From: a virus
Direction: 5' to 3' (one strand)
Length of the DNA: 64,000 nt
IMG/VR virus record: IMGVR_UViG_3300036945_001058
How positions within the stretch are numbered: the stretch's first letter is position 1; each line of letters opens with the position of its first letter. A program made the translations under genes and the position numbers. The notes beneath the pieces are model-generated. The model had not been told where the DNA came from and did no database searches. It saw only the letters and a program-made list of their open reading frames with translations. Shown one piece after another: positions 2,803 to 49,154 of the stretch.

Positions 2803-5800
2803 ATGAACTCTACATTATTAAAAAAATACGAAACTATCGACCAATCTAAAGTGTCTGAAAAAGATAAAAAAGTATTGGAACAAGTAAAAAAACTCACGAA
2901 TGGTTTCGAGGAAACAGATGAAGCGAAAAACAAAGTTGCCGAAAAGATTTTAGACCAAATCACAACATTGAATCCTGATGCTGTAAAAAAGCCTGAAGTA
3001 GTTGCTCAAAAAGTTTCTAAAGTACAAAAGGTGGTTAAAGCCAAAAAAGTAACGAAAGCAAAAAGCACTGCAACTACTCATAAAAACAGCCACAAGAACA
3101 CTCCTGCTCCTGCTCCTGCTCCTGCCTCTGCTCCTGCAAGTGCTAATACTGCTAAAGGTTCGGGCAATAACATAATGTCTGTTGCAAAAGAAATTCAAAA
3201 AACTGGAGAATCTTGGAAAGACGCTATAGAACGTGCTAAACAAGTTCTCAAAGACCGTAAAGAACAAGTTGTTGAAAAAAAGAAAACTGAATTACAGAAG
3301 CTTTTAGCACTTGTTAAAACTAAAAAAGAACTTCAAGGCTTTGCTAATTCCGATATTGATAGAGATTCACGTAGAACTGCTTTGCCAAGAGGTAGACGAC
3401 TTTCTAAAAATGGTAATACCTATTATGAAAATAGAGAGAACCGCACAGACAGACTTGCGCCTAATTACCCACAAGATATGCCTTTGTTGGCGAGTGGCGG
3501 TGAAACCGAAAAATACAAAGCAGGTCAAAAATTTTACGACACAAGATACGATAGAGTTTGTGAAATAGTTCCGTCTAACTACGATGGTTTGGTTACTTGG
3601 AAAAGGTATAATAAATCAGGAACGGAATTTGAAAATAACGAAAAACACTCGTTGGTTGAAAATCAATTTGATTATTTAGTAAATATGGGTGCTTATCAAA
3701 TTAGCAAACAACAAATGGCTGAAGGCGGTTCTGTTTCAAATGAAAGAATGTATAATTTCTTAACAGACGATTTGAATAAATTAGAAATTGCAATAAACGA
3801 AGGCGACAAAGAAGAAGTTGAAAGATTTTTTTCTTATTGGAGTTACCATTTAAAATCTCTTGAAAACAAAAGGTACGGTGAAAAATACGGCAGAATGTAC
3901 AATTTCTTAGAAGACGATTTAGGAAAATTAGAAAAAGCAATAAACGAAGGCGACAAAGAAGAAGTTGAAAGATTTTTTTCTTATTGGACTGGTAGTTCGG
4001 GTCATATAAAATCATTAAAAATGGCTAACGGCGGTTCTATAAATATGAATAAACATATTTGGGAGGGTTGGACTGTTGGGGGGTTTATCGAAGATTTAGA
4101 ACCTACATTTAATCAAATTATGACAGGAAGTTCTTGGCAAGAACCATTTAAAACCAAAGAAGAAGTTAAGAAATGGACTATGGATAACCAACCAAACTAT
4201 AAAAAAAATATTCCAGAAGTAGTAAATTATTTCTGGGCTAGGGTTCAAAGCAAAGAGAACTACGCTAACGGCGGTTCGGTTGGAAGTGGTAAAAACGGAT
4301 ATGTAGCCTTTTATAAAGGGAAACAAGTTGATGTTTATGCCGACACAAAATACGAAGCTCAAAAATTAGCTTCTCAACATTTTAAAGCTAAAAAAGATTA
4401 CGATGTAAATGTTGTTTTAGTAGAACTTGACGGAAAGCCTTATGTTAATAAGGCTAGTTTTGCCGATGGAGGAGAAACAAACGAATATACCTTAAATTAT
4501 AAAATTGAATTTACTACATCTGGTGAAGATTCTTATTTAGAAGGTAATGTAGGTGGAGATATTATGGATTTGAGTGATGTTAAAAATATTGATACTAATA
4601 AATATTCTGCAATAGCAAAAAGTTCTAGTGTAGCTTTTGAGGGGCTTAAAGGTCAGGAATTAGAAGATGAGATATACAATCAAATGAACGAAATGTTTGC
4701 TACAAATGACAGTATTGAAGTTGATTTAGAATCGGTCGAATTTAAAGGTAATAAATTTTCAGACGGCGGTTATTTTGATAAACTAGAAGACGTTAATTTT
4801 CTATTTGAAGTTGGAGAAAAAATAAAAATACCCCAAATGGAAAATGGAAAGTTAGAATTAGTCGATGCTGAAATTATAGAACAATACCCTGCCGAACAAA
4901 ATGACGGAACATATTATCCTTTTTATTATGTAAAAGGTTTGTGGAAAAACGCAGGTAAAATGCTTTATGATGAAGAAAAAATTTTAGAATACGGAAATAA
5001 AAATAAAAATTCTTTTGAACTTGGTGGAGCTTTTATGACTGATTTAGCAGGTCATACAGGAGGTTCTTTCGGAACAGGTAATCCGACAAATTTAGATAGT
5101 TTTTCAGGCACTAACTATACAGGTCTTGTTGGGGAAACTGGCGCAATGTCAAGCGGTGAATTATTTGAAAATGGCGGTGCTATGATACAAAACCAACAAG
5201 TAATTAATGATGCTTCTCAATCTTATGTTAATTACTACTTGGGAGATGGCGCAGGTCAAGGTAGTTATAAAAAAGGTGGTTCAATTCCAAACAATTACGA
5301 AGGAAGGACAGCGGATGATGTTTGGGGAAATTGGACAGAAAAACAAAGAAGCCACTTTCTTTTAGACCATAGCGAATTACTAGACAAGGATAGGCTTGAT
5401 AATAATTTAGGTTATACAAGGACAGTTCAAAAAGACAAAAAATTCACAGAACTAACTCCGCTTACAAAAAGAGTATTGGAATCTCATATTGGAAGCGGTC
5501 AATATGCTTACGGTGGCAAAATAAACGGCAACCTAAACAAAAAAATAAAATCTTTAGCCGAGAAAAAAGGAATAACTCCTGATGAATTAGGCATTGTCGA
5601 ATACAATAAAGCTATGACTCAAGCATTAGTGGAATCTTTAACTGATGCTAACTTTCACGATGAAGCAAAAGAAGTTATCTCCGCTATGGAGAAAAAAGAA
5701 TGGTCTGACGATTTGTATAAGTCGGTATATTTCAATCCTGATGAAAAAATAAGTTCTTTTGCTAGAGAAGTTGCGAGAGAATGTGAATGGGACGGAAATG

Positions 5801-8800
5801 ATATTATAAACGCCTATTTCTTTGTAACTAAAATGAATGGTTTAAAAGTTGGGTCTGTAATTGAAAATTTGTTTTTAAAAGCGAAGCCAACGAAAAGTGG
5901 TTTCGATGGAAACATAGAGTTTAACGTTGGCGATATTGTATGGCAAAAAGACGAAAGAGGATACGCTACCGTAATAAATAATTACGGCGACCCCATTAAT
6001 GGAAATTATGGAGACGTAAGGCTTGACTCAACAGGAAACACTGGGATTTACAGTCACGACTCAAAAAGGAAAACACCTGCCACAACAATAAATGCAACTG
6101 GTTATAATCTTATCAAATTAGGAGAAAAAGGAGACACAGGAAAGTTTACAACCGAAGTTCTTGCTAAAATGAAAGAAAGTGCAAATAGCCTTATTGATTA
6201 CAGAAAAAAAGCCAAAGACAAAGATGGTATTGTTTATTACCAAGAGGTTTACAAAAGGCTTCTCGATGGCGAGTTTGATTCAATGGTTAAAGGAACTTCA
6301 ACCCAAAAAAAATACATTGACCACGATGACATTAAAACCGTTACGGTAATGTATAAAGGCAAGCAAACCGTATTTAAAGGCGAGGACGTTCTTAACGGAG
6401 CAAACTTACTAGAAGATGGCGGAGACCTAAGTAAAATTGCTTTCTATATCGCTAAACGTGACGTAGTTTCTGTAGAGCTTAAAAACGGAGAAACAATAAA
6501 GCCTGCAAATGGATATTGGATTAAGAAAGGGGCAGAGCCTCTTTTTACCCCAAGCGGAACTCCAAAAAATAAAACGGACGAAAATAAAGCACATTTTCAA
6601 GCAGATGCTTTAGGGAATATTTTTGTAGATAGTAATTTTGTTAATCAATCTAAAGGTAATTTACCAAATTCAGAATTAAAGCATTATGGCTTTGGAGATT
6701 TTTATTTAGAAACTCCCGAAGGTAATATTGACTTTATTAGAACTTCTGAAGAAAAAGAAGGTTTTGTTGGTCGAACCCATAAATTAAAAGGTAGTAATGA
6801 ATTAATAAAGAAATTAATTGACGCTATGAAAGAAAAAGGCAGGTTTGACGATAATCAAACTTTTGCAAATGGAGGGTCTTTTGCTAAAGGTGGTGCTTTC
6901 AAACCTTACGGAAAAACAAAAGGAAGATACACAGTTAATTACACTGTAGATTCTGAAAAACAGTCTGAAATTTGGAACACAAGAGAAATGGCTGTGAATA
7001 ACGCTAAAAGATACGCTAAAATTGACGAATATTCAGATGTAATGGTTTTTGACGAAAACGGCAATGAAATTGATTTTTTAGTTGAAGTTTCTTTTGCTGA
7101 CGGTGGATTATTAAACAGTCGTCAAATCGAAAAACTAGATAATGGTTTTACAATTCCTCAACTTGACAAAATGTTAAGAGAAATGTTTCCTGATTCTTTT
7201 GGATTAGCTGTTTTTAAAAATGGTAAAAACCTACTTGATTACGATTATAAAGACAAAATAAAAGGCGATAAATTAAAGCTTTATTTCTACAACAAAAACT
7301 CTCGAAGAGATTTGAATTACGAGGTTCGTCAAGGGGAAGAAAATACATATTTTGATTTTAAGTTATTCGATGAAGAACAAAATACTTATACAGGTGGATT
7401 TGGATTTAAAGACGAGGGTGATGTGGACAAAAGTTATATAACCAAATTTCTTTCTTTTTTACAAGACGCTTATCATTATCCTTTCGAGGTAAAACATCTT
7501 GTAATGGCTAACGGTGGTGGTATTTCCGACTATGGGAACAGTCCAGAACTTAAATCTTTGATAGATAGACATGAAAAATTACATTTCGATGTTAAAAGCA
7601 AGATTGCAATAGCGGTTGGTCTTGACGATGCAATTTCTTTTTATGATGTAAATTTAAAAATTAATCCTTTCAGGTTTATTGAAAGAGCTGTCTATGGCGG
7701 TTTAATTTCGCTTGACGAAATAGACAAACAGCTAATCGATTCAGCAATGGAAGAAGCAGAGGATATTGATAGTGATGATGATTTGGACGAAATTGGTAGT
7801 AGCGACTTTACTTATTACTTGAAAAATGTTTTGGAAGATGCTGGCATTAAAGTTGGATTCGTAAGTGGTAGACTTCGTAGATTAAATGAAGATGGAAGCG
7901 TAAAAGAAATTAGTAATAATTTTGCTGAAGGTGGAGAAATAAGAAGATTCAATCGACACGAACAAATGGATTCTGAAACAAGAGAAGAAATTTTAGATAT
8001 TGTTTCTGACCCAAATTTAAACGGCACTTTAACTAATTACTTATATGGTTTATTTGACGGATACGATTATTCTGAAACAGAAAATTTTAAAAAAGAATTG
8101 AACAAGTTAAAATCAAAAGGTTTAGCTTTATACAGTAGAATAATTGATGTTTACGAAAAAATCGAAAAGTACAAATTTGAAAAGTATGATGAGTACGCTG
8201 ATGGTGGAATGTTTGAAGCTCCAATTGGTGTTCAAAGGGAAGTTAAGGGAAAATTAATTAGTGTTCCCACAACAGAGCAAATATCAAAATCAGAAGTTGA
8301 CAGATTTGTAGATTACGTTTATGAAGCTTATGAATCGTACGACCAAGAAGGTGTATATCAATTTACAAAACCACAAGTTAGAAAAGCAGTCAATAAATAT
8401 TTGACTCAATTAGAGTTTCAACCTACTTGGGGAGGTGGTGATAGTTTAGATAGAGAAAGAGTTTACGAATTTCTTATAAATCCGAAACTTGACGAAATTA
8501 AAAATCCAGTCTTCGCTAACGGTGGTTTTTTTGATAACAACGATGGTTTTATGGAAGCAAAAAACGGAAATAATTACCGTTATCCAGAAAGACCTGTTAA
8601 TATTGATGTTATTGACGAGCCGATTGATTTAACAAATAATGTTAGTAATCGCACAAATAAAGTTGTTATAAAACCAATTAGTGAAGATGTAGACATAACA
8701 GGGAATAACTTAAAAGCAAAGTTAGGTCATTACCAAAAAAACAGAACACCTGACAAAATGATTGCGGTAAATCCTAGAATGATTTTATATAATTTACCAA

Positions 8801-8832
8801 ACATTAATTATGAAGAACATAAAAATAACTAA
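2803..8832 (+). CDS. giant modular polyprotein 1 (18 [FYML]xxGG motifs), probable internal virion protein
   Basis: 2009 aa ORF. Motifs in order: LASGG, MAEGG, MANGG, YANGG, FADGG, FSDGG, FELGG, FENGG, YKKGG, YAYGG, LEDGG, FANGG, FAKGG, FADGG, MANGG, FAEGG, YADGG, FANGG. Confidence 0.75.
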   Translation: MNSTLLKKYETIDQSKVSEKDKKVLEQVKKLTNGFEETDEAKNKVAEKILDQITTLNPDAVKKPEVVAQKVSKVQKVVKAKKVTKAKSTATTHKNSHKNTPAPAPAPASAPASANTAKGSGNNIMSVAKEIQKTGESWKDAIERAKQVLKDRKEQVVEKKKTELQKLLALVKTKKELQGFANSDIDRDSRRTALPRGRRLSKNGNTYYENRENRTDRLAPNYPQDMPLLASGGETEKYKAGQKFYDTRYDRVCEIVPSNYDGLVTWKRYNKSGTEFENNEKHSLVENQFDYLVNMGAYQISKQQMAEGGSVSNERMYNFLTDDLNKLEIAINEGDKEEVERFFSYWSYHLKSLENKRYGEKYGRMYNFLEDDLGKLEKAINEGDKEEVERFFSYWTGSSGHIKSLKMANGGSINMNKHIWEGWTVGGFIEDLEPTFNQIMTGSSWQEPFKTKEEVKKWTMDNQPNYKKNIPEVVNYFWARVQSKENYANGGSVGSGKNGYVAFYKGKQVDVYADTKYEAQKLASQHFKAKKDYDVNVVLVELDGKPYVNKASFADGGETNEYTLNYKIEFTTSGEDSYLEGNVGGDIMDLSDVKNIDTNKYSAIAKSSSVAFEGLKGQELEDEIYNQMNEMFATNDSIEVDLESVEFKGNKFSDGGYFDKLEDVNFLFEVGEKIKIPQMENGKLELVDAEIIEQYPAEQNDGTYYPFYYVKGLWKNAGKMLYDEEKILEYGNKNKNSFELGGAFMTDLAGHTGGSFGTGNPTNLDSFSGTNYTGLVGETGAMSSGELFENGGAMIQNQQVINDASQSYVNYYLGDGAGQGSYKKGGSIPNNYEGRTADDVWGNWTEKQRSHFLLDHSELLDKDRLDNNLGYTRTVQKDKKFTELTPLTKRVLESHIGSGQYAYGGKINGNLNKKIKSLAEKKGITPDELGIVEYNKAMTQALVESLTDANFHDEAKEVISAMEKKEWSDDLYKSVYFNPDEKISSFAREVARECEWDGNDIINAYFFVTKMNGLKVGSVIENLFLKAKPTKSGFDGNIEFNVGDIVWQKDERGYATVINNYGDPINGNYGDVRLDSTGNTGIYSHDSKRKTPATTINATGYNLIKLGEKGDTGKFTTEVLAKMKESANSLIDYRKKAKDKDGIVYYQEVYKRLLDGEFDSMVKGTSTQKKYIDHDDIKTVTVMYKGKQTVFKGEDVLNGANLLEDGGDLSKIAFYIAKRDVVSVELKNGETIKPANGYWIKKGAEPLFTPSGTPKNKTDENKAHFQADALGNIFVDSNFVNQSKGNLPNSELKHYGFGDFYLETPEGNIDFIRTSEEKEGFVGRTHKLKGSNELIKKLIDAMKEKGRFDDNQTFANGGSFAKGGAFKPYGKTKGRYTVNYTVDSEKQSEIWNTREMAVNNAKRYAKIDEYSDVMVFDENGNEIDFLVEVSFADGGLLNSRQIEKLDNGFTIPQLDKMLREMFPDSFGLAVFKNGKNLLDYDYKDKIKGDKLKLYFYNKNSRRDLNYEVRQGEENTYFDFKLFDEEQNTYTGGFGFKDEGDVDKSYITKFLSFLQDAYHYPFEVKHLVMANGGGISDYGNSPELKSLIDRHEKLHFDVKSKIAIAVGLDDAISFYDVNLKINPFRFIERAVYGGLISLDEIDKQLIDSAMEEAEDIDSDDDLDEIGSSDFTYYLKNVLEDAGIKVGFVSGRLRRLNEDGSVKEISNNFAEGGEIRRFNRHEQMDSETREEILDIVSDPNLNGTLTNYLYGLFDGYDYSETENFKKELNKLKSKGLALYSRIIDVYEKIEKYKFEKYDEYADGGMFEAPIGVQREVKGKLISVPTTEQISKSEVDRFVDYVYEAYESYDQEGVYQFTKPQVRKAVNKYLTQLEFQPTWGGGDSLDRERVYEFLINPKLDEIKNPVFANGGFFDNNDGFMEAKNGNNYRYPERPVNIDVIDEPIDLTNNVSNRTNKVVIKPISEDVDITGNNLKAKLGHYQKNRTPDKMIAVNPRMILYNLPNINYEEHKNN
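3745..3987 (+). repeat. internal duplication (2 x 96 nt, period 147) encoding RMYNFLxDDLxKLExAINEGDKEEVERFFSYW
   Basis: 3745-3840 vs 3892-3987 are near-identical. Confidence 0.9.
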
Positions 8833-8850: not shown

Positions 8851-11800
8851 ATGAAGCTATTCGATAAAACAATAGACGAACAATTATTTAAACAATATGC
8901 ACTTGGTAGTGACCTCTCTAAACAAGAGGTTGTTGTTAAGATTTATAATCCTTTTGGAGCGGGAAGCTGGTATATATTAAATTCCGACCCGCAAGACCCT
9001 GATTACCTTTGGGCAATTGTTGATTTAGGCTATGGAGCAGAAGTTGGTTCTGTTAGTCGAAACGACCTAGAAAGTTATCGTGGTGAATTCGGGTTAGGAT
9101 TTGAACGAGATTTAGGTTTTGAACCTGTTAATGGAGAAGAACTCTTTAAAGGACTTCGTCAAGGTAAGTTTTACGCCAATGGTGGTGGGATTGATGATTA
9201 TTCTGATTTGTATGGTCAAGAAGTTATGGCTTTAAAAAACGCAAAAAATCAAGCGAAAAGAACGGGTTACGACTATCTTGTTTATTTGAAATAAGGAGAA
9301 ATTTCTTTTGCTCGTAAAAATGAATTTGAAAGATTCTTTGATAAAGAGGAGTGTAAAATACTATATACGATTGATGAAAAAGGAAATGCTGATAAAATCA
9401 AGTCTTATGATGAAGGCGGAAATGTTGAAGAATACAAACCTTATGTATTTTATTTCTATTACGATGGGAACGAAATGACCTTTAACACTTTAGAGAAAGC
9501 TCTTGAAGAAGCTAAACAATTAGGAGCAATGAAAGTTAGAGATGATTTAGGAGGAGAGTACTTTGTAAATTATGCTGACGGCGGAAACTTGTCAAGAGAC
9601 CAGAAATTCGTAAACAAAAGCGAAGATTATGAGGTAGAGTATTCAAAAGGCACGAATCGAAAAGGTTATGAAAAACATTCTTTTGCAGAAGGAGGAAACG
9701 TAAGACAATCTTTAGAAGATGTTTTGAAACAAGATGTTACTTTTTTAAAATTCGATAGTAATAGAGCTTACGATAAATTAGTTAGATTAAATATTCCGCT
9801 TATTAATGTTCACGATTATGATTTTAATCATTATACTATAATTGAAACTAAAAACCTTGAAAAAGTTTTAGAGTATGTAAAAAAAGGGGTAAGAATAGTT
9901 AAGAAGAAATTTGCATCGGCTGATTTGGGTTTTGACTACAGAGGGAGTATGAGTTTTGAAGATGGTGGAGATATTGATAATGAAATCTACGAAAAAAGAC
10001 TTCAATATTTAAAAATGATGAAGAACAATGAGCGTAGTGATTTGGGTAAATACCAAATAGATAAAGAAATTAAAAATATAAATATGATTTTAGAACATAG
10101 AAAAAACATAGAAAGTTCTTATTCTAATGGCGGAAATCTATTTAAAAACCTTAGTATTGAAAAACAAGAAGCAAGACAAAATCTTAAAGAAAACATTATA
10201 AAAGCATTATTTGTAGATAAAAAAAATCCAATCACAGAAGTTGCTTTAACCTATTCTAATTCTAAGTATTCAGTTCCTAATATTAATAAACAAGACATTA
10301 GAAATACGGTATGGGAGATAAACCAAACTAAAAAATATAAAAATATAATTGTTTACACTAATTCTTATGGCGTTTTGAGTTTAAAAGTAGAAAACAGCTT
10401 TGAAGAAGGTGGCTCTATCAAAAAAACAAGGCGAACAAATAACCAAATAAGAAAAGATAATTATAACAAGGAAGTTGATTTGTATAATTGGTACGTTGTT
10501 AATGTTGCAGAATTAAAAGCGGAATCAGGATTTGAACACAAAGAAGATGCACTTGATTTGCTTTCGGACTATGATGGTGATAAAAACTTTAAGGTAGTTT
10601 CTAAAAAATCTTTAAAAACTTTAGGAATTGAAATACCTAACGAAAGATGGAAATATGCTAATGGTGGAAGTTTTGACGATGATTTTGACGGAATTGCTTA
10701 TGCTAAAACCAAAGGAAAAGAAAGTATCGACTGGGATAAGGAATTAAAAGAATATGCTGGCGAAAAAGAATATCAAAGATTGACTCCACGAGAAAAAGAA
10801 GAAATAATTTCTGACCTACAAAGAGATTGGGATAGGTCTAATTCCTATGCTAATGGAGGAAACATAATAAAACCAAAAGTAGGAGATACGATATTTAGAG
10901 CTTACTACGTTAAGGATTACGATGGCGAACATTATAATGCAATTATTATAGCTGAAAACGCTGAAAAAGCCGAAGAAAAAGCAAGGTCAATCTACAAGGA
11001 TGATTTTTCTTTTATAAGTGATGGCATAAAAATAAAGAACGAAGAACAATTGTTTGAAGAAACAAGAGAAGACGAGCCAGTTTATAATTGTGAAAAAGGA
11101 GAAGAAATGAACGCAAAAGATTTAACTAATAAAGAAGTTTATGAGCAAATTGTGTCGAAAGTAGGTAATAGTATTTGGGAACAAAATGCTTTAAATATAC
11201 TAAGGAATGAATCGGTAAAGAACCCTGATGGCGTATTTAAACCTACAGGAGATTTAGACAAGTTGCAAAAGTATCTATCCAATAGTAATTACTATGAAAA
11301 AGGCGGAGAAATTGCCAAAGCAGAAATTCTCGGTTTCAGTAAAAACATAATGGGAACTACTGATATTGAAATGAGAATAACAGGAATGAGAAAACCTCAA
11401 AACTTCATTGTTTATCCAATAGGCAAAGACGATGCTGGAAGTGTTATTACAATCCAATCAGAAACAAGAATAGGTCAAATTAACTTGGTAAAAGGGGTTG
11501 GTGTAATGAGCCAAAGTCATTCAAGCGGGGCTTATTTTGTTCACTTACAAATGGATAAACTAACTCCTTTCACATTAAGCGAAAGCGACTTGGAAGACCT
11601 AAAAACAAGCGTTTTTAAAACTTCTGGTTCTAACGTTGGGTCTTCTATTGTAAAATCTGATAATTCAGGGGCTTCAAGGATTTTAGCCAAAGGTGGCGAC
11701 TTAGGCAAATACGAAGGCGGTAAGAATTTTGAAATTAGAGACTACAAAATGCTAAATATAGATGATGTTTTAGAGAGAGAAAAACCTATAAAATTATACA

Positions 11801-14799
11801 AAGAGCAAGTTTTATGTATAAATCCTACTTATGCCGATAATTATACATATTGGATTTGTCCTAGAGATATAACCATTAAAGAAAATTACGGAAACATTTA
11901 CATAGAAAAAGGAGATAAGCTGTATTTGACAATACAAAACCCTGTAAATGGAGACGCTAGTTCGTCTACCTCTTATAATGTAATTATAAACGGTAAATCC
12001 TACCCTTTATTACATTTTATTCCAGAAACAGCAGATGGTGGCGACTTAGACGATGTTAATCATTATGATGCTATTACTCAATTAAAAAACTTGGACAAAG
12101 TATTAACAGGAACACTCGAAACGCCACAACAAGCGGAAGAAAGAAAAATAAGAATAGCTGAAACGTTAATACCAGCTAATGATTTCTATGTTTCTAAACC
12201 ATATCATTCTCACGGTTTTGAACACCCTCAAAAAGTTATATTCAAAGACGGTAAGTGGCTTAGATTAAGAGAAGATAAATGGGTTACTAAAGAAGATTAC
12301 GAACAACAAACAAATAGACCCGACTTAAATTTTGATGAAGACCAATTTAATATTTGGGGCAAATTTGACACCAAATATGATTTAGCTTGGGATATAGTAA
12401 TGAATGCAAGGGTTATTTTAGAAGAAAAATCGGAAAAAGACATTGATAGCAAGTGGGATAAACAGTATGATTATTTAACTTCGGAAAACAAAAAACAATA
12501 CAATTCTAAAACAAAAGAAAGTAAACTCGAAAACGGTGGCGATGTTTTAGAAAGAGGAAAAAAATCTGGATGGGGAAATGTTAGCGAAGAAGAAGATAAT
12601 GCTATTGCTTGGTACAGCAGTCTTTCTATGAATCAGCAAAAGGAAGTTGATAAACATCTTGAAAGCTACAAAGCTAATCTTACTGAAGAAAAGTTCCAAA
12701 AAAGAGGATTAAGTGTTAGAGATTTCGGACGCACATATCGAAGAGATAAATTAATCCATATTTGGAAATCAGAGGGTAGTCCCGAACCACAGGATAGCTT
12801 TGCTAATGGTGGCTCTACTGGGGATGTTTACGCTGACGGTGGACAAATTAGAGTTGGCGACAAGTATAAATACAACTGGACTGACAATGATGGTAATGAG
12901 GGATATACAATTCGTGAAGTGGTAAAGCAAAACATTACGAGTAGCAAAGATTTTAGAACTAAAGTTATGATTATGAAGGTTGTTGAAAGCTCAATGCCTG
13001 AACAAGTAGGACGATTAGAAGAAGAATATAAACCAAGTTTCAAAAAAAGAATTGGATGGGGTTTAGAAATTCCTATGCACGAAAGAATGCCGAAATTAAC
13101 TGATGAAAATTATGCCAAAGGCGGAAGCTTAGAAGATAAATTGACTAAACTTGAAAAGAAGAAATCCGACTTAGAATCAAAATTATTTGAAGCTAAATTA
13201 GCAGAAAATAAAGTTATGAATAATATGGGTTTTGGCGCAGGAATGAGACGTTCTAAGATTAGTATTTCCACAACTAGAACTGATTCGTTAAAAGCTAGGA
13301 TTGAGGCTGTAGAAAAAGAAATCGAGCAAACCAAAGAAGATATGTTGCCAAAAAAACCAAAATACATTCTAAAAGCAGACATCAAAACAGTTACGGTAAA
13401 ACGGAACGGTAAAAAAGTTACCTATAACAGCGCAGACGTTTTGAATGGTGCTAATGTACTTGAAAAAGGGGGTGATTTGACTTCAAAAGCGAATTACGTT
13501 GCAAAACGTGATGTGGTTAGTGTGGAATTAAAAGACGGAACTGTAGTTAAGCCAGTAAACGGATATTGGGTTAAAAAAGGTGCTGAACCGATTGGAGCAG
13601 AACCAAAATCTACCCAATTATTAAATACATTATCTGATAACGAGAAAGAAATAGACGAAAAGTTAGCATTGTTTACAAAATCAGACAAGGAATTTAATAG
13701 GTTGCAATCTGAATCAAATAAAGAATTTGTTAAAAAGACGAAATTAGAAAAAGAAAGAATTGCTTTAATTAAAAAAGGCGTTAGTAATACCGAAGAAATT
13801 GATGCTAAAATAAAGGATGCAAAAGAAAAAGGTAATTTGTATTCAGAACAAGCGATTGGTTTGTTAAAGAAATATCAAGAAGATTTGGCACAACCTAAAA
13901 ATTCATCTTCATCGGTAAATAAAATTAGCACTACCGAAATAAGAAAAGACCAAAGAGGTATTTGGAGAGCAGAAACTACCATAGATAACTTTAATGGTTA
14001 TGATTGGAGACTAACTACTTTAAAAACATATAGTGGTCAATTAATTTCTTCTGCTCAAGGTGGAAAGTTTCAAGATTCAGGAAGTAAAGGCATTAATATG
14101 TTTAAATACACAATGTACGAAGACCCATATCACACTTTAGAAGTTTCAAAACCAAGCCGTTTGACTGAAAAAGTGGTTGCAGAGCAACACGTAAAAGCTT
14201 TAGCTAAATTTAAAAAGTTTATGGAAACAGGAGTGTTCAAAGGAGGTGGTAAAATATCTACTTTTGATAAGGTCTCTGCTAAAATAGCAAAAGAGTTCGA
14301 GGGTAAGCCTGTTGCAAATAAATATCAAGAAGAATACGGAAAATATTATTCTAAACAAGAAGCTGAAATTGTGGGTAATAAAATTACTGGAAAAAGTAGA
14401 GCAATGGATGTTGATAAAAAAGCATTTGGCGGTTTATTTAGCCACGTTAAAAAACTGACTGATTCCAAGCCAAAATACCCAAATCTTGAAGGTAAACAAG
14501 TTTTTTTAAAGACAGGAGAACTCGTTCAAGTTTTTACACAATCTGACAATACTTTAAGCGTTTTAGATGTGAGTAAAATGAATTATTCAGGCGAAAGACC
14601 ACGTTTGATTGATATTTCTGAAGTGAAAAATAGTTCATTTGAAAGCGGTGGCGGATTAAATACCAAAACATCGAATAAAGGTGCTGAAACTTTAAAAAAA
14701 GCAAATGAGTTGGCTACTAAAATTAGAATTAAAGGCGAGAGTTGGTTAGATGCTAAAAAAAGAGCTTTTGCCGAATTGAAAAAAGCAGTGTCAAACTAA
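8851..14799 (+). CDS. giant modular polyprotein 2 (N-terminal DUF2958-like module; ~18 [FYML]xxGG motifs), interrupted by one in-frame TAA at 9292-9294
   Basis: ORFs 8851..9294 and 9475..14799 are in the same frame. The 180 nt between them are stop-free and encode SYDEGG. The N-terminal module VKIYNPFGAGSWY...GAEVGSVS...ERDLGF resembles DUF2958. Confidence 0.75.
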
Positions 14800-22450: not shown

Positions 22451-23545
22451 ATGAATAACCAAGAAAACTACCAAGATGTAGAGATTGTTAATGATGACTT
22501 CTCTCCATTAGATGCTCCTGTAAAAGAAAGGGCATATACTCATCACAAAATAGACGAAACTCAAGTAATGCAAGACTTGGAAGAACCTACGTTTGAAAGA
22601 CCTAGTTTTTCAGACCTTGATGATACTGCCGAAGAAGGGGAACAAGAACCAGAAAGACCTTTTAATCAGTCCTACAGTGAGTTAGATGGGAAAGAGAAAA
22701 CTATGGGTGCAGAGATGATGGCTGATATGACATTAGACATTTATGATAAAGCTTGTTTTTATATGGGTAAAATACCAGAGATAAGCGAGTCAAAACTTGA
22801 TAAATTAATAGCAGAAGGGGAAATAGACCCATCAATTCAACTCCAGACAGAATCGGGCGGTATGGCTGTTAAAGATTTTGCCGTAGAGTTTAATGACAGT
22901 ATAAAAGATGCCTTTCAGGTTAGCGATGAATTTAAAGAAAAGGTAAAACCACCATTAATCCGTGTGTTCAAAAAACGTGGAATTGGAATGACCGATGAAC
23001 AGTTGTTGGCTTACTATTTCGTTACCGATTTAGGTGCTAAAGGTGCGCAAGCTTTTATGTTGAGAAAAACCGCTAATGGTATTTTAGATTCTTTGAAAGA
23101 AAACACAATAGCAATTAGAGAAAGTCAAATAAGAACTCAAGCACCACCTCCGCCAGCTCCGCAACAAGCATATCAAGAAAGACCAACTTCACAAGAAACA
23201 TATCCGAAACAGTCAAAAAGTTCTGATGACGAGTATTCTGCAAATATAGCAGAAGTAATTAGTGAGCCTGTTAAAAAAAATAAGAATGAAAAACCAGTTA
23301 GAAGAACGGCTAAAACAAATCTGGAAGAACAGGTTGCGTATTTTGAACCCGAAGAACAAGAGGTTTTTAGCAATTTAAAAGACAAAGATGGCTTTACTGA
23401 TAGTTTTCAAGACGTAGTAGGTATGCCACAGTACGGCGACCCATTAATGATGTCAGAATTAGAAAGGTTAAGTAAAAAAGACCCAACTAAACCTGTTAGA
23501 AAAGTAAGAACAACGGCTTTAAGAAAACCAAGAAATAAAAAATAA
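22451..23545 (+). CDS. hypothetical acidic protein with Pro/Lys-rich tail (possible assembly protein)
   Basis: 364 aa ORF near the ATPase gene. Confidence 0.6.
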   Translation: MNNQENYQDVEIVNDDFSPLDAPVKERAYTHHKIDETQVMQDLEEPTFERPSFSDLDDTAEEGEQEPERPFNQSYSELDGKEKTMGAEMMADMTLDIYDKACFYMGKIPEISESKLDKLIAEGEIDPSIQLQTESGGMAVKDFAVEFNDSIKDAFQVSDEFKEKVKPPLIRVFKKRGIGMTDEQLLAYYFVTDLGAKGAQAFMLRKTANGILDSLKENTIAIRESQIRTQAPPPPAPQQAYQERPTSQETYPKQSKSSDDEYSANIAEVISEPVKKNKNEKPVRRTAKTNLEEQVAYFEPEEQEVFSNLKDKDGFTDSFQDVVGMPQYGDPLMMSELERLSKKDPTKPVRKVRTTALRKPRNKK

Positions 23546-24392: not shown

Positions 24393-25208
24393 ATGGAACA
24401 AAGAGAACCGAAATTAATTATTGTTGTGGGGCGTAAGGGTTGTGGGAAAACCTTTACAACCACGAAGCTCATTAATCAATACGCACAAGGAAATCCGTCT
24501 AAAGGTGTTCCTGCGAGAAGGGCTTTAATCCTCGATGTAAATGACGAATACGAACAATTTAAAGCACTAAAATTATCTGATATTATGAGATTTTCAGCAC
24601 ATCCTAAAATTGAAGTAAGAAGAATTAGACCGTTTCATGATAACGGGCTTAGAATGACGATTAGGGATTTACAAGAAGCTTTATCTAAAATACTTAGGGA
24701 TTTTAGAAATGGATTATTTCTTATTGAAGATAGTTCAAGAATTCTTGCTGATAGTTTATCTATGGATTTGATGGGAGCAATTGCCACAAGTAGGCATTTA
24801 GATATGGATATAATAATGCACTTTCAATCAATAGGAAGAATAACTCCTAAAATTTGGCAGAACCTCACGCACATTAGGTATCATAAACAAACGGATGGGG
24901 TAGAGAAAAACAAAAGTAAATTTGAAGATAAATACGAATTGTTAAAATTAGTAGAAAGTTATGTAGATGATGAGTATAATAATGGAAATCAAAGGTTTTA
25001 TTTATATATTGACGTAGAAGATGAAAAAATAAAAAATGTTGATTTAAAAAAATTCGACAGAATTGTAGAAGACTATGTGATTGAAAATCAGAAAAGATTA
25101 ATAGCTCCGTTGGTAAATAAGGGGAGTTTGTTAAAAAATACTAAAGCACAAACTGTAGAGCAAGCATTAAAACTACAAAAAGAAAGAATTATAAAATATT
25201 ACACATAA
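24393..25208 (+). CDS. FtsK/HerA-superfamily (poxvirus A32/PRD1 P9-like) genome packaging ATPase
   Basis: Walker A VVGRKGCGKT, ILDVNDEY, Walker B LFLIED, and an SRHxxxDIIMHFQS Arg-finger/sensor motif. Confidence 0.8.
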   Translation: MEQREPKLIIVVGRKGCGKTFTTTKLINQYAQGNPSKGVPARRALILDVNDEYEQFKALKLSDIMRFSAHPKIEVRRIRPFHDNGLRMTIRDLQEALSKILRDFRNGLFLIEDSSRILADSLSMDLMGAIATSRHLDMDIIMHFQSIGRITPKIWQNLTHIRYHKQTDGVEKNKSKFEDKYELLKLVESYVDDEYNNGNQRFYLYIDVEDEKIKNVDLKKFDRIVEDYVIENQKRLIAPLVNKGSLLKNTKAQTVEQALKLQKERIIKYYT

Positions 25209-25220
25209 AAAAAGGCTATT

Positions 25221-26390
25221 TCATAGCCTTTTTTTTATTAGATGTTCAATATTTTGCCCTTGATTTAAAAGAAAAACTGCTCTATCATAAACACCTCTTG
25301 CTGATTCAGGATTATCATAAGAGCCTAAATTATTAGTTTTTCCCTTTATTGTTAATTTAGCCTGAAACTTATCGCCAGTCCTAAAAACACCTTTATATGT
25401 TTTATTTGGAGATTTTTTAGGATAAAAATGCTCTATTGATTTTCCTTCTAAAATTAATTTTTTAGCTTCCAAATATCTATTATTTGCTAAATTTACATCT
25501 GCAAAAGTACCTAAATCTTTGTTTAACCCATCTATATAAATCCTTACTCTAAACTTATCACGGCTTTTATGAACTCCTCTAAAATTTGTTTCGCTTATTT
25601 TAATATTTTCTGTAGGCATTACTTTACCTCCTTTATTTTTAATTTCAAGAGCTTTCTTATATTCTACTCCTGCTAATTCGGCAGTTTCAAAAACACCTAA
25701 ATTAACAAATTTATTATCTATAATAATTCTAGCTTGAAATGTACTTTTATTTTTACATACTCCCGTATATAAATTGATGTTGCTTCTTGTTTTTACTAAG
25801 TGCAAAATATCTTTATTACAATCTATCAATCTAACTGCTTCATTATATTTTTCAGATGCTTCTTCAGGAGTATTATAAGCCCCTAAATTAAGTAATTTTC
25901 CTTTGTGTTGAATTACAGCGACAAATCCATTTTTAATTTTAGAAACACCTGTAAATCCTGCTGAATTTATTTTGTCTTTTGAAATATTATTACGATGAGT
26001 GATTACTTGTAAATTAGAAAGCATATTATGCTCTTTCACATTATCTTTATGGTCAATTACCAGTTCATTAGTTCTTGGGAAATGATTTATAAAAGCAATA
26101 GAAACTAAATGATGTGTTAAATAACTTTTTAATTTTGAATCTTTATAAAGACCAACTGAATAATAAGCAACCCTTTTGCTTTGCTTCATTATTTTTTCTT
26201 TTGACAAAAAAGTTCCTTTACCAGAAGAATGATTTTTATAGCGGTCAAGTCTTTTTACCCTACCTAAATCACTTACTTGATACAGCTCTTCATAATCAGG
26301 AATATCTTTCCATTCCTCAACACATTCTAAACCCTCTCCGTTTAAGTAAACGATAGGCTCTAAACTAAAATCTAAATGATAGTTTGACAT
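25221..26390 (-). mobile_element. NUMOD4-HNH homing endonuclease with four AP2-like domains
   Basis: WKDIPDYEELYQVSDLGRVK (NUMOD4), IDHKDNVKEHNMLSNLQ (HNH), four xxGV...F.A.I...LG repeats; opposite strand to its neighbours. Confidence 0.85.
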
Positions 26391-26830: not shown

Positions 26831-27358
26831 ATGGCATATAGTTATTTAAACAACGAGGATTCCCCTCAAATTTTAGTTCAAGCAAAAATGCTATTAGGAA
26901 CTAAGGAAATCGCAGGTAGCGTTCATAGTAATATTATTATGAGTTGGGCTAAAAGTTTAGGTCTTGAAAAAATATACACCGCAGATGAAATAGCGTGGTG
27001 TGGGCTTATGATGGCGATAGTCTGTGAAAGAGCAGATGTAAAAACTAATCTAACACCTAAAGAAGCTTTATGGGCTTTAAATTGGAGTAAATTTGGAACA
27101 AAACAATCCGTAGCAATGCTTGGAGATATTCTTACGTTTAAAAGGAATGGAGGAGGACACGTTGGCATTTATGTCGGGGAAGATAATACTTGTTATCATA
27201 TTCTCGGAGGAAATCAATCAAATATGGTGTGTATTACTCGAATAGAAAAATCAAGGTTAAACAGTATTAGACGTACAAACTGGAAAGTAAAACAGCCGTC
27301 TAATGTTAGGGTAATTAAGATAGAGAGTAATGGCGTAATTTCTAAAAACGAAAGTTAA
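26831..27358 (+). CDS. endolysin, NlpC/P60-CHAP type (TIGR02594-like)
   Basis: DEIAWCG, GGGHVG, LGGNQSN. Confidence 0.85.
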   Translation: MAYSYLNNEDSPQILVQAKMLLGTKEIAGSVHSNIIMSWAKSLGLEKIYTADEIAWCGLMMAIVCERADVKTNLTPKEALWALNWSKFGTKQSVAMLGDILTFKRNGGGHVGIYVGEDNTCYHILGGNQSNMVCITRIEKSRLNSIRRTNWKVKQPSNVRVIKIESNGVISKNES

Positions 27359-44191: not shown

Positions 44192-45010
44192 ATGAAAAAG
44201 ATTTTTTTTAATTCCTCCCTACCCCGTGCTGGGTCAACGTTAATTTCCAATTTAATTGCTCAAAACCCAGATTTTTATTGCACCCCTACCTCTGGACTAG
44301 CGGATTTGATATTAAACGCAAAAAACACTTATGCTCATTCACAAGCAATTTTAGCTCAAGACAAAATAGTTATGGAAAACGCTTTTTTGGGGTTTTGCAG
44401 AGCTGGTATGCAAGGTTTTTTTAATAACATTACCACAAAAGAATTTATTTTAGACAAAAGCAGAGAATGGAGTATTCACTATAACCTTTTAAATATGCTA
44501 AACGAAAACCCTAAAATCGTTTGTATGGTTAGAGATGTTCGTTCTGTTTATTCTTCAATGGAAAAAAACTTCCGAAAAAATCCACATAGGGAAAATCACA
44601 TTCAAAATGCACCGCAGTTAGTCGGCACTACATTAGATAAAAGAATAAATATTTGGGCAGATGGAATACCAGTTGGTGTTTCAATGGACAGATTAAAAGA
44701 CTGCATTCAGCAAGGTATAGCAAAAAAAATGTTGTTTATAAGGTATGAAGATTTAATGGTAAACCCAGAAATCGAAATGAAGCGTTTGTACGAGTATTTA
44801 GGCTTACCTTACTACGAAGCACACGATTTTGAAAATGTATCTCAATTAACCCACGAAAACGACCTTGTTCACGGTATCTACGGCGACCATACGTTAAGGC
44901 ACAAGTTTGAAATGAAACCAGACGACTATTATGATGTTTTAGGGTATGAATTATCCAATAAAATTAAGAATACCTATAAGTGGTTTTACGACTATTTCGG
45001 ATACGTTTAA
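44192..45010 (+). CDS. sulfotransferase
   Basis: SSLPRAGSTL (5'-PSB loop), DKSREW, MVRDVRSVYSS (3'-PB). Confidence 0.85.
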   Translation: MKKIFFNSSLPRAGSTLISNLIAQNPDFYCTPTSGLADLILNAKNTYAHSQAILAQDKIVMENAFLGFCRAGMQGFFNNITTKEFILDKSREWSIHYNLLNMLNENPKIVCMVRDVRSVYSSMEKNFRKNPHRENHIQNAPQLVGTTLDKRINIWADGIPVGVSMDRLKDCIQQGIAKKMLFIRYEDLMVNPEIEMKRLYEYLGLPYYEAHDFENVSQLTHENDLVHGIYGDHTLRHKFEMKPDDYYDVLGYELSNKIKNTYKWFYDYFGYV

Positions 45011-45017
45011 TATTTAT

Positions 45018-45779
45018 ATGATTTTTTTATTTACAGGGCAACCCCACGCAGGTAAGACAACATTAGCTAGATATTTACACTCTTTTTTATTAGAAAACTC
45101 AATAAAAAATACATTTTTAATCGATGGAGATGATTTGAGAAAAATAAATAATAATAAAGATTATTCGGAGCAAGGGCGTAGAAGCAACATAACCCAAGCG
45201 TTCTCAATAGCAAAATATTTAGATTCTTTAAACCACGATGCAATTATAGCTTTAGTTTCTCCTTACAAAGATATGAGGGAAGAACTAAAAGCAAATTCAA
45301 ACGTAGTTGAAGTTTATGTACACACTACAGAAAGAAGAGGTAGAGAGGGTTTTCACGTTGAAAATTATGAACCACCTACTGAAAACTACATCAATATAGA
45401 TACTACTGATGTAGATGAATTATCGTCTATGAACGAACTATTTAATCACATTCAAAAATTCATTAAAATGCCACCAGAAAAAAACGAGTTAAGCAAGTTA
45501 GATTCCGTTCAAAAATTCATCCTCGAAGGTAGAGAAGTCGTGCTGAAAAAAGAAGATGAAACTTCTTTTGTCCGCATATATAACAACAATTCAGCCACGC
45601 AATCTTCTGAAAAATGGTTGTTAATCATAAATGGTAATAAGTTTCATACAAGTGAAGTAAATATAAACTGCCGAACAAGAACCTTTACAGGTAAATTTGA
45701 AGATATGGATATTGAAAATCACATAGTTTGCGATGCAAATGAAGTAAAATTCAAAAACAACATAGCTACTATAATCTAA
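45018..45779 (+). CDS. cysC: adenylyl-sulfate kinase with C-terminal extra domain
   Basis: Likely start is ATG 45018; FTGQPHAGKTT, LIDGDDLR, DYSEQGRRSNI, LVSPY, YEPP. Confidence 0.8.
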   Translation: MIFLFTGQPHAGKTTLARYLHSFLLENSIKNTFLIDGDDLRKINNNKDYSEQGRRSNITQAFSIAKYLDSLNHDAIIALVSPYKDMREELKANSNVVEVYVHTTERRGREGFHVENYEPPTENYINIDTTDVDELSSMNELFNHIQKFIKMPPEKNELSKLDSVQKFILEGREVVLKKEDETSFVRIYNNNSATQSSEKWLLIINGNKFHTSEVNINCRTRTFTGKFEDMDIENHIVCDANEVKFKNNIATII

Positions 45780-48686: not shown

Positions 48687-49154
48687 ATGGCGGGTTTGTA
48701 TGCACCAGTAGTTACTTCATATCCAAAAGGAGTATTTTCAATAACAAGCAACAAAGGAACTCCATACCCTTTGATACAAGAGTCTATGGGTAGTTACCAA
48801 TACCGTATAGATGAAATTTATTTACAAGCAAATACGGCACAACAATTATTTCAGCCTATAAGCTTTAGGAGTTATGATGCTAATGGAACTGTAAATATTG
48901 TTGTAGATGTTATAACTATCAATCCTTATCAGAAACAAAACTCACTTTTTATAAAGCCTGTAAATAAAAATCTAATTCTCGATGGGCGTACATCTATAAA
49001 GTTTGATTTACTACCAAATGAAGAACAAAACATGGTCTTTTTTACTACCGAACAGTCAAATGATTACGGTTTAAAAGAACCAAATTTCTTTGACGATTAT
49101 TTTTTTAAACAACAACAAGACGATTTTTTTAATGGGTTTGTCGAGCAAGTTTAA
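48687..49154 (+). CDS. paralog of the capsid candidate (minor or second capsid protein)
   Basis: YLQANTAQQLFQ...DANG...TINPYQKQ...LDGRTSI aligns with YIQSATTNQVLQ...DANG...TIDPYQQQ...IDGFTKI. Confidence 0.65.
   Translation: MAGLYAPVVTSYPKGVFSITSNKGTPYPLIQESMGSYQYRIDEIYLQANTAQQLFQPISFRSYDANGTVNIVVDVITINPYQKQNSLFIKPVNKNLILDGRTSIKFDLLPNEEQNMVFFTTEQSNDYGLKEPNFFDDYFFKQQQDDFFNGFVEQV

What the first reader, a model, noticed from the sequence alone, without database searches (positions are those of the whole stretch)
8851..14799. Second GG polyprotein looks built from captured stand-alone mobile-element proteins
Seen: about 18 more motifs. The first module is a complete DUF2958-like domain ending at YANGG. 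Other modules read like independent small phage or plasmid proteins, for example 13921-14235 (EIRKD...WRAETTI...RLTEKVVAEQH), 11305-11680, and 4036-4260 and 4276-4458 in polyprotein 1. Inference: the GG scaffold works as a cargo array into which small host-takeover or anti-defence genes are recruited and delivered with the genome, a protein-level analogue of a gene-cassette array.
Basis: partly seen in the sequence, partly recalled or inferred. Interest (0 to 1): 0.85.

Follow-up and report, generated by a model that had tools for sequence, protein, structure and literature searches.

The report
GG-punctuated mosaic effector polyprotein of a virus
A giant gene of an uncultured bacterial virus strings together about 20 small independent protein domains, each ended by the same short Gly-Gly tag. 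Several of these domains exist as stand-alone genes in other phages and plasmids, so this is a new, regularly punctuated form of the known "polyvalent protein" cargo arrays.

Summary
Frame 8851-14799 carries 18 [FYLM]-x-x-GG sites, against about 1.6 in shuffles. It starts with a true DUF2958 domain. Relatives are unbroken there.

Over 89 related proteins the motif is [YF]-A-[DKN]-G-G-x-[IVLM], about one per 100 residues. In the 64-kb window it is confined to the two giant ORFs. It lies in disordered linkers between confidently folded domains. Homology blocks between relatives begin and end at it, at protein and DNA level.

Stand-alone homologues were found for:
- DUF2958 (plasmids, tailed phages);
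- 11308-11697 (124-131-aa ORFs in phage-like contigs and in Polaribacter and Agitococcus MAGs);
- 10861-11090 (77-92-aa ORFs);
- three PP1 modules.

None was found for 13921-14235. Relatives carry ArdA, a zeta-toxin kinase and LPD11 as motif-bracketed modules.

This matches the known polyvalent-protein concept (Iyer et al. 2017) but lacks its metallopeptidase and adds a universal punctuation motif. Cleavage, packaging and anti-defence activity are untested, and no protease was identified. I rate it a new variant of a known kind. This scan had already noted the same motif in the neighbouring PP1 gene of this window.

The parts
8851..9294 (+). 147-aa ORF: DUF2958 module plus the first 35 residues of the next module, ended by the TAA
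8851..9186 (+). Module 1, DUF2958 (PF11171), ends ...KFYANGG. It is the N-terminal module of 69 of 89 family proteins. Stand-alone relatives occur in 78 plasmid and 9 phage records.
9295..9297 (+). In-frame TAA inside module 2. The relative L004 has GAG here, with 3 more bases just upstream.
9298..14799 (+). Rest of the array, 1833 codons without a further stop. The first ATG is at 9475. It holds 17 more motif sites.
9421..10860 (+). Seven variable cassettes of 37-93 aa (clusters 19, 17, 43, 15, 102, 44, 21), each present in only 2-14 of the 89 family proteins and at varying relative positions
10861..11307 (+). Composite 149-aa module. The N-half (about 10870-11090) is homologous to the stand-alone 77-aa and 92-aa proteins P0100 and P0099. 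The internal border motif is decayed (YNCEKGE, where relative P0096 has YNKGG).
11308..11697 (+). Module 6, 130 aa, present in 64 of 89 family proteins. It is a confidently folded autonomous domain. Stand-alone homologues of 124-131 aa occur elsewhere.
11698..12540 (+). 281-aa module shared with only one other family protein; no relative found in IMG/VR
12541..13125 (+). Variable cassettes (clusters 45 and 26) and a 10-aa mini-module, STGDVYADGG
13126..14796 (+). Conserved C-terminal block (clusters 4-2-0-0), collinear in 63 proteins. Its motif sites fall in linkers with pLDDT below 50.
13921..14235 (+). No stand-alone homologue was found.
2803..8832 (+). PP1, the neighbouring 2009-aa array with the same motif. 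PP1-type and PP2-type proteins share 28 module clusters across the family.
4036..4275 (+). PP1 module homologous to a small ORF that starts at the module border in a gut phage scaffold (MT839127.1; 58% identity, E 1e-16)
4276..4473 (+). PP1 module matching phrog_19202 (61-position profile, E 5e-5)
8209..8526 (+). PP1 module matching phrog_7799 (78-position profile, E 4e-12) and an 83-aa ORF in L025
49090..49611 (+). LRAT/PLAAT-like permuted papain-fold protein with a C-terminal TM helix. It is a weak candidate for a GG-directed peptidase, and equally likely a lipid enzyme.

Best explanation
PP2 and its neighbour PP1 belong to a family of giant mosaic proteins of an uncultured dsDNA virus lineage with about 30-35% GC. 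Its contigs reach 158 kb and come from freshwater and subsurface samples. The host is probably in Bacteroidota.

Each protein is a string of 9-40 small, independently folding domains (median 77 aa). Each domain is followed by a disordered linker with the consensus [YF]-A-[DKN]-G-G-x-[IVLM]. PP2-type proteins keep an N-terminal DUF2958 domain, module 6 and a C-terminal block. The cassettes between them are gained, lost and replaced, with breakpoints at the motif. Part of the cassette pool is shared with stand-alone small genes of other phages, plasmids and bacterial contigs, and in relatives it includes ArdA and a zeta-toxin-type kinase.

Inferred function: a polyvalent effector array. Many host-takeover or counter-defence proteins are made as one polypeptide together with the virion-gene block. 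They are probably packaged and delivered with the DNA, and probably cut after Gly-Gly by a site-specific protease that has not been identified.

In this genome a TAA has split off the DUF2958 head as a separate 147-aa ORF.

Shown: anatomy, motif, linker location, mosaicism, stand-alone homologues.
Inferred: cleavage, packaging, effector role.
For: Motif. It occurs in all 89 proteins at about 1 per 100 aa, 5-8 times the shuffled expectation. The logo over 1530 sites includes an aliphatic P2' preference that was not part of the search pattern. Within the window it is confined to the two ORFs, and in relatives' loci to the PP1/PP2 pair.

Linkers. The AF2 model of module 6 has pLDDT above 90 over residues 11-130, with both flanking motifs below 50. 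In the C-terminal block four motif sites fall in segments below 50.

Mosaicism. There are 273 module clusters, and architectures differ between relatives. BLAST HSP ends lie within 5 aa of a motif in 53% of cases against 12% for random positions. The four central DNA homology blocks with L004 start 0-15 nt before a GG end and stop within 6 nt of one, while the two blocks in the conserved C-terminal region do not.

Stand-alone homologues.

Known effector families bracketed by motifs in relatives: ArdA, Zeta_toxin, LPD11.

Synteny next to SLT and GH108 wall hydrolases, on one strand with conserved core genes.

Concept precedent: PMC5512222.
Against: No protease was identified. There is no zincin HExxH in the family. 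Four relatives' records gave no Peptidase_C48 or C5 hit. The NlpC/P60-like gene is missing from syntenic relatives.

No proteomic evidence exists for cleavage or packaging.

PP2's own modules, apart from DUF2958, match no Pfam, PHROG or NCBIfam family, so an anti-defence role rests on relatives only.

Module order is mostly conserved: only 20 of 252 co-occurring cluster pairs occur in both orders.

The gene is interrupted by a stop codon here, so PP2 may be partly non-functional in this genome.

One invariant motif site (LEKGG at 13459-13473) has strongly conserved flanks and could be part of a fold rather than a cut site.
Confidence: 0.6

Rival explanations
1. Uncleaved beads-on-a-string protein. 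The array acts as one long flexible polypeptide, for example an internal virion, core or ejection protein or a matrix under a viral membrane. The motif would be only a hinge: GG flanked by an aromatic and an aliphatic residue that cap the neighbouring domains. Modules add bulk or binding sites and are not released effectors.
For: No protease was found. The proteins lie in a same-strand block with wall hydrolases and conserved core genes. N- and C-terminal modules are conserved, as expected for anchoring ends. Phage N4 vRNAP-type polyvalent proteins are packaged unprocessed (PMC5512222).
Against: A pure hinge does not need a 7-residue consensus kept across hundreds of unrelated domain junctions. 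Stand-alone homologues function without the array. ArdA and zeta-kinase modules are soluble effectors elsewhere. Doubled sites that release only 6-10 residues, such as FMNNVYADGG, make little sense as hinges.
Confidence: 0.2
2. Intracellular polyprotein expression. The arrays are not packaged. They would be a way to translate many small accessory proteins from one start, useful in hosts with weak Shine-Dalgarno use, and to release them by cleavage inside the infected cell.
For: Stand-alone homologues sit in dense arrays of small early-type ORFs. The motif fits a cleavage site.
Against: The genes are co-oriented and contiguous with wall-hydrolase and core genes rather than with the replication genes (RecT, methylase) on the opposite strand. 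Nothing excludes this reading directly.
Confidence: 0.15
3. Decaying or non-functional gene in this genome. The TAA marks PP2 as a pseudogene, and the apparent modules are relics.
For: The in-frame TAA at 9295-9297 is absent from all relatives examined.
Against: 1833 further codons stay open in 31% GC DNA. Substitutions after the stop, compared with L004, are largely synonymous. The family as a whole is intact in over 80 genomes.
Confidence: 0.05

Closest known systems
Polyvalent proteins of phages and conjugative elements (Iyer, Burroughs, Anand, de Souza, Aravind 2017, PMC5512222)
   Same: Giant multi-domain proteins of invasive elements that combine unrelated effector domains. They show extensive mosaicism between orthologues, have solo versions of the same domains, and are predicted to be delivered with the DNA and processed into units. 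Relatives of PP2 carry LPD11 (a domain defined in that study) and ArdA.
   Different: There is no zincin metallopeptidase and none of the common hub domains (ArdC-N, MTase-helicase, MuF). Modules are much smaller (median 77 aa) and more numerous (up to 40). Every junction carries one conserved [YF]A[DKN]GG-x-[IVLM] motif. The paper's main text has no hit for the words glycine, linker or spacer.
Gly-Gly-processed polyproteins of eukaryotic dsDNA viruses (ASFV pp220/pp62 cut by pS273R; adenovirus precursor proteins cut by adenain at (M/I/L)XGG-X) - from general knowledge
   Same: A dsDNA virus makes large precursors with repeated GG-X sites. A hydrophobic residue upstream of GG helps define the site.
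   Different: Those products are fixed structural core proteins, not exchangeable cassettes. Their hydrophobic residue is at P4, here it is at P5. No clan-CE peptidase was detected in four relatives. Cleavage here is unproven.
Head-protease-processed internal proteins of tailed phages (T4 IPs and Alt with LxE sites; phiKZ inner-body proteins cut many times at S/A/G-X-E by gp175; P1 Dar proteins) - from general knowledge and PMC5512222
   Same: Proteins packaged in the capsid, cut at a simple recurring motif, injected with the DNA, and some anti-restriction.
   Different: The motif is different. No prohead protease, terminase or other tailed-phage hallmark was seen in the window or in relatives. 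The cassette mosaicism has no counterpart there.
Integron gene-cassette arrays
   Same: This works like one at the level of evolution. Interchangeable units are bounded by a short conserved element, and replacement breakpoints lie at that element.
   Different: The units are in-frame protein domains within one ORF. No integrase or attC is involved. DNA conservation of the motif is only modest. Selection for in-frame swaps could explain the breakpoints without any site-specific mechanism.
Polyubiquitin and ubiquitin-like precursors
   Same: Head-to-tail units, each ending in Gly-Gly, in a single translation product.
   Different: The units here are unrelated to each other and are not beta-grasp domains as far as modelled. 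No DUB or JAB enzyme was identified.

Membership tests
DUF2958 (Pfam PF11171) | Profile match above the curated gathering score | tested here: met
   Residues 25-92 of 8851-9294, 52 bits against a cut-off of 21, E 1e-13. tblastn finds annotated DUF2958 genes in plasmids and phages.
Polyvalent proteins (Iyer et al. 2017) | Several unrelated globular domains in one polypeptide encoded by a phage or mobile element | tested here: met
   19 motif-delimited modules, mutually unrelated. Two regions were modelled as separate folded domains. The viral context is shown.
Polyvalent proteins (Iyer et al. 2017) | Mosaic architectures among orthologues, and solo versions of the same domains | tested here: met
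   for mosaicism; for solo versions
Polyvalent proteins (Iyer et al. 2017) | Presence of domains from the published inventory (MPTase, ArdC-N, MTase-helicase, LPDs, ArdA ...) | tested here: inconclusive
   None in this window's PP1 or PP2, and no HExxH. Relatives of the same family carry LPD11 and ArdA.
Polyvalent proteins (Iyer et al. 2017) | Delivered into the host with the DNA (packaged or escorted) | not testable with these tools
   Gene-order context only
GG-processed viral polyproteins (ASFV / adenovirus type) | Recurrent Gly-Gly-X sites in a viral precursor | tested here: met
   (as a sequence motif only; cleavage not shown)
GG-processed viral polyproteins (ASFV / adenovirus type) | Virus-encoded clan-CE (Ulp1/adenain-like) cysteine protease | tested here: not met
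   No PF02902 or PF00770 match at E<=1 in four related records, and none among the Pfam-scanned window ORFs. The relatives' records are fragments, and about 54 kb of this virus's 118-kb contig lies outside the window, so a divergent enzyme is not excluded.
Head-protease-processed internal proteins of tailed phages | Tailed-phage head module (terminase, portal, prohead protease) next to or with the cargo genes | tested here: not met
   No PHROG hit for ten large window ORFs. No Terminase_6N in four relatives. Instead a HerA/FtsK-type ATPase is conserved in 5 of 5 relatives. Prohead-protease families were not searched specifically.

The most novel reading that the evidence does not exclude
A bacterial dsDNA virus uses a true polyprotein strategy. 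Up to 40 exchangeable effector cassettes per gene would each be released by a dedicated protease that cuts after [YF]A[DKN]GG. The same 15-nt motif would also serve as the microhomology at which cassettes are swapped between viruses and captured from stand-alone genes of phages and plasmids. That would make it a protein-level integron feeding pre-made counter-defence proteins into the virion.
Probability: 0.3. Interest if true: 0.85.

Novelty: new variant of a known kind. Interest (0 to 1): 0.62.

Why it matters
If the motif is a cleavage site, these proteins would be the first regular, multi-site polyproteins described in a virus of bacteria. They would also define a new protease specificity. 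The family already lists hundreds of small domain families selected for delivery or co-expression during infection. A few of these are recognisable (ArdA, zeta-type kinase, LPD11, DUF2958) and most are unknown, so the motif could be used to mine candidate host-takeover and anti-defence proteins from metagenomes. The motif-bounded cassette replacement between close relatives also gives a concrete case of domain-level exchange between giant ORFs and stand-alone small genes.

Tried and rejected
Searches with no result:
- Cultured phages: megablast and tblastn of 9298-14796, which excludes the DUF2958 head, found nothing.
- PDB sequence search of PP1, PP2 and the DUF2958 ORF found nothing.
- Foldseek of the C-terminal block and of module 6 against PDB and BFVD gave no hit at E<=0.001. 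The only AFDB hit is an unnamed 130-aa homologue.
- NCBIfam on PP1 and PP2, and PHROGs on four large relatives, found nothing.
- IMG/VR scans with modules 11698-12540 and 9697-9969 found nothing. Module 12844-13125 gave one embedded hit and one spurious hit.
- Full-text literature searches (motif strings, DUF2958, and phage/polyprotein/Gly-Gly/virion/cleavage) returned no relevant paper.

Protease candidates:
- The NlpC/P60-like ORF 26831-27358 was rejected as the universal protease. It is absent from the syntenic region of G003 and G004, which do have GG arrays.
- The LRAT-like ORF 49090-49611 was first thought absent from three relatives. That absence is uninformative, because synteny shows that at least the G003 and G004 contigs end before that region.
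- A complex prediction of its soluble part with a 48-aa PP2 junction gave no verdict, so it counts neither for nor against.
- The upstream ORF 48-1136 is DUF7192/vWA-like, not a peptidase. ORFs 1429-2787 and 22451-23545 gave no usable lead.
- No C48 or C5 peptidase and no HExxH motif was found.

Other ideas rejected:
- TAA recoding. The rest of the window reads as dense ORFs under table 11.
- Strong DNA-level conservation of the motif. Only a moderate codon bias was seen.


Full report
**What is there**

The frame opening at 8851 runs to 14799. It is cut once by a TAA at 9295-9297. Upstream of the stop is a 147-aa ORF. Its first 112 residues are a DUF2958 domain (PF11171, E 1e-13, 52 bits against a cut-off of 21) ending in YANGG. 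Downstream, 1833 codons stay open, and the first ATG is at 9475.

The stop lies inside the second module. The closest relative (P0004 on L004) has GAG at that codon and three more bases just before it. The DNA on both sides is 91% identical, with many synonymous differences after the stop. None of 16 IMG/VR relatives has a stop within 600 codons of the DUF2958 start. A short contig from a second sample reproduces the TAA, but only at its very end and at low depth. The split is either a recent nonsense change or a fission that leaves DUF2958 as a separate small protein.

**The motif**

The frame has 18 sites of the form [FYLMIVW]-x-x-GG, giving 19 modules. The called 1774-aa protein has 16 such sites against 1.6 in shuffles.

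A word-indexed search found 88 proteins of 1000-3200 aa. Nearly all have DUF2958 fused at the N-terminus. Each aligns to only 3-30% of PP2 in the best local alignment. All of them carry the motif at about one per 100 residues, 5-8 times the shuffled expectation.

Over 1530 sites the logo is [Y45 F33]-[A66]-[D39 K31 N8]-G-G-x-[I29 V20 L14 M12]. The P2' preference was not part of the search pattern, so it is independent signal.

With a strict pattern, 30 of 31 occurrences in all six frames of the window lie in PP1 and PP2. In six relatives' loci the motif is likewise almost confined to the PP1/PP2 pair. One more distant locus (L007) has three consecutive motif-rich ORFs.

**Modules are real domains and the motif is a linker**

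Module 6 (11308-11697), modelled with ten flanking residues on each side and a 30-sequence alignment, has pLDDT above 90 over residues 11-130 and pTM 0.79. Both flanking motifs are below 50.

The model of the conserved C-terminal block (13126-14796) has lower overall confidence (mean pLDDT 69, pTM 0.30). In it the sites LEKGG, FKGGG, AFGG and FESGG all fall in segments below 50, between structured elements. A non-canonical AQGG sits inside a beta-sheet.

**Mosaicism**

Cutting all 89 proteins at the motif gave 1573 modules (median 77 aa). The 1388 modules of 20 aa or more formed 273 clusters.

PP2-type proteins keep DUF2958 at the N-terminus, module 6, and the terminal block 4-2-0-0. The centre differs from genome to genome:
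- PP2 reads 3-96-19-17-43-15-102-44-21-u-6-95-45-.-26-4-2-0-0.
- P0011 reads 3-1-.-36-5-6-44-.-22-.-15-4-2-0.
(u = a module unique to this protein; . = a mini-module under 20 aa.)

PP1-type and PP2-type proteins share 28 clusters. Order is mostly kept: only 20 of 252 co-occurring cluster pairs occur in both orders. Gain, loss and replacement therefore dominate over shuffling.

BLAST alignment ends fall within 5 residues of a motif in 53% of cases, against 12% for random positions. At DNA level against L004, the four central homology blocks (77-84% identity) begin 0-15 nt before the end of a GG codon pair and stop within 6 nt of one. The cassettes between them show no similarity. The two remaining blocks, in the conserved C-terminal region, are not bounded by the motif.

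Codon use at the motif is moderately biased: Ala GCT 78% against 43% elsewhere, and the first Gly avoids GGA. Third positions vary, so the DNA is not strongly conserved.

- DUF2958. tblastn finds 78 plasmid and 9 phage records. Examples are a 97-aa gene on a mobilizable Salipiger plasmid and a 123-aa gene in Sphingobium phage Lacusarx, both in runs of small genes.
- Module 6, the named 11305-11680 module. Fourteen proteins of 109-218 aa match it, eleven of them 119-131 aa long. Several are complete ORFs in dense small-gene arrays on contigs of 10-28 kb. Others lie in a Polaribacter MAG and a gammaproteobacterial Agitococcus MAG with 47% GC. They start about 10 residues before the module's first conserved position. 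They end ...SIFAL or ...SIFNL exactly where the polyprotein copies read ...IFA[DK]GG. The only fold match is an unnamed 130-aa AFDB protein (TM 0.78/0.89).
- The module that looked unique, 10861-11307. An exhaustive search showed it is composite. Its N-half matches other GG arrays and two complete small proteins: P0099 (92 aa, E 2e-10) and P0100 (77 aa, E 3.5e-7). Both are on phage-like contigs of 36-49% GC.
- PP1 modules. 4036-4260 matches the start of a small ORF in a gut phage scaffold. 4276-4458 matches phrog_19202. 8209-8526 matches phrog_7799 and an 83-aa ORF in L025.
- Negative cases. The named module 13921-14235 found only three proteins on contigs of about 1 kb. The one inspected, P0090, is a fragment of a polyprotein. 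Module 11698-12540 found nothing in IMG/VR. PP2 apart from DUF2958 matches no Pfam, PHROG or NCBIfam family.

Apart from L024/L025, which share two more genes with this lineage, the contigs with stand-alone copies share only the module with it.

**Effector content in relatives**

ArdA (P0084 residues 1214-1379) sits in a module bracketed YELGG | ... YANGG. LPD11 (P0011 residues 654-721) is bracketed YAKGG | ... YADGG. A Zeta_toxin/AAA_33 kinase (P0079) is bracketed YKSGG | ... IEKGG.

**Context**

PP1 and PP2 follow a DUF7192/vWA-like gene. In relatives an AAA_5 ATPase lies further upstream. They precede SLT and GH108 wall hydrolases and many small ORFs on the same strand.

A 271-aa HerA/FtsK-type ATPase (DUF87, E 2e-5) is conserved in 5 of 5 relatives. 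No PHROG hit was obtained for ten large ORFs, and no Terminase_6N in four relatives. I did not pursue that further.

One PP2-type gene lies on a 132-kb contig binned with a Sediminibacterium MAG, which is a weak host hint.

**Mechanism**

The best-supported reading is a polyvalent-type effector array (Iyer et al. 2017, PMC5512222). In that concept, many unrelated domains with solo counterparts are fused for simultaneous delivery and are processed into units.

This family differs in three ways. It lacks the zincin peptidase that the paper regards as the processing device. Its modules are smaller and more numerous. It has a uniform seven-residue junction.

Three observations point to a protease recognition site rather than a plain hinge:
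- a P5-P2' consensus is kept across hundreds of unrelated junctions;
- the motif lies in disordered linkers;
- doubled sites enclose only 6-10 residues. FMN[NDG]VYA[DK]GG makes up about half of the 171 mini-modules of 12 aa or less in the family.

Cleavage is not shown and the enzyme is unknown. The NlpC/P60-like ORF is missing from syntenic relatives. The LRAT-like ORF remains a weak candidate whose architecture equally suggests a lipid enzyme. No clan-CE peptidase was detected. Packaging and delivery rest on gene order only.

**Verdict**

Exchange with a pool of stand-alone small genes is demonstrated for several modules, including one of the two PP2 modules named as examples, plus the DUF2958 head. 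It is not demonstrated for the other, and the direction of exchange is open.

The cargo-array idea corresponds to a published concept. What appears new is the universal GG punctuation and the motif-bounded cassette replacement. I therefore rate this a new variant of a known kind. The same motif had already been noted by this scan in the neighbouring PP1 gene (note e1-5346812).

Noticed in passing
window 9295-9297: An in-frame TAA splits the PP2 gene. Relatives have a sense codon (GAG in L004). The stop leaves DUF2958 as a separate 147-aa ORF, a natural example of a module becoming stand-alone. A second sample's contig also shows the TAA.
   Followed up: partly
PP2 12814-12843; PP1 6877-6894; many sites in relatives (e.g. 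P0011): Mini-modules of 6-10 aa sit between two motifs. The 10-mer FMN[NDG]VYA[DK]GG makes up about half of the 171 such mini-modules in the family. They may be empty cassette sites or a longer form of the motif.
   Followed up: partly
motif codons in window PP1/PP2 and in L002, L003, L004, L007: Codon bias at the motif: Ala is GCT in 78% of sites against 43% elsewhere, and the first Gly is GGA in 7% against 35% elsewhere. This may reflect avoidance of GGAGG or modest DNA-level conservation useful for recombination.
   Followed up: partly
window 3730-4035 (PP1 residues 310-411): Internal tandem duplication of a ~35-aa segment (RMYNFL.DDL.KLE.AINEGDKEEVERFFSYW occurs twice) within one PP1 module.
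   Followed up: no
window 6300-6600 and 13350-13650: PP1 and PP2 share a highly conserved element (KTVTV...DVLNGAN.LE.GGDL...YW.KKGAEP) that spans an invariant GG site. This particular GG may be part of a fold rather than a junction.
   Followed up: partly
window 24393-25208: A 271-aa HerA/FtsK-type ATPase (DUF87, E 2e-5) is conserved in 5 of 5 relatives. No Terminase_6N was found in relatives and no PHROG hit for ten large ORFs. The virion type (tailed or not) is unresolved.
   Followed up: partly
window 25221-26390 (- strand): An HNH/NUMOD4 homing-endonuclease-like gene on the opposite strand, directly after the ATPase gene. It has only partial, non-syntenic matches in relatives.
   Followed up: no
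window 44192-45779: Adjacent sulfotransferase (PF13469, E 1e-17) and APS-kinase-like (PF01583, E 9e-16) genes: a possible sulfation module in a virus.
   Followed up: no
window 49614-50801: A 395-aa NHL/SBBP beta-propeller protein (Vgb_lyase, SBBP and NHL repeats) next to the LRAT-like gene.
   Followed up: no
G003 and G004 (IMG/VR records of L018 and L015): CheckV rates these records 100% complete. However, synteny with the window runs off their ends (window ~38 kb corresponds to G003 position ~900; window ~43.6 kb to the end of G004). They are fragments, so completeness estimates for this lineage are unreliable.
   Followed up: yes
L038 (MAG Sediminibacterium sp., 132-kb contig): A PP2-type gene lies on a 132-kb contig binned into a Bacteroidota MAG. 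This is either a host hint or a binning artefact.
   Followed up: no
L028 372-2563: The stand-alone 77-aa homologue P0100 lies directly upstream of an AAA_5 ATPase and a DUF7192 gene. The same two families lie upstream of PP1 in this lineage, although this contig has 49% GC.
   Followed up: partly
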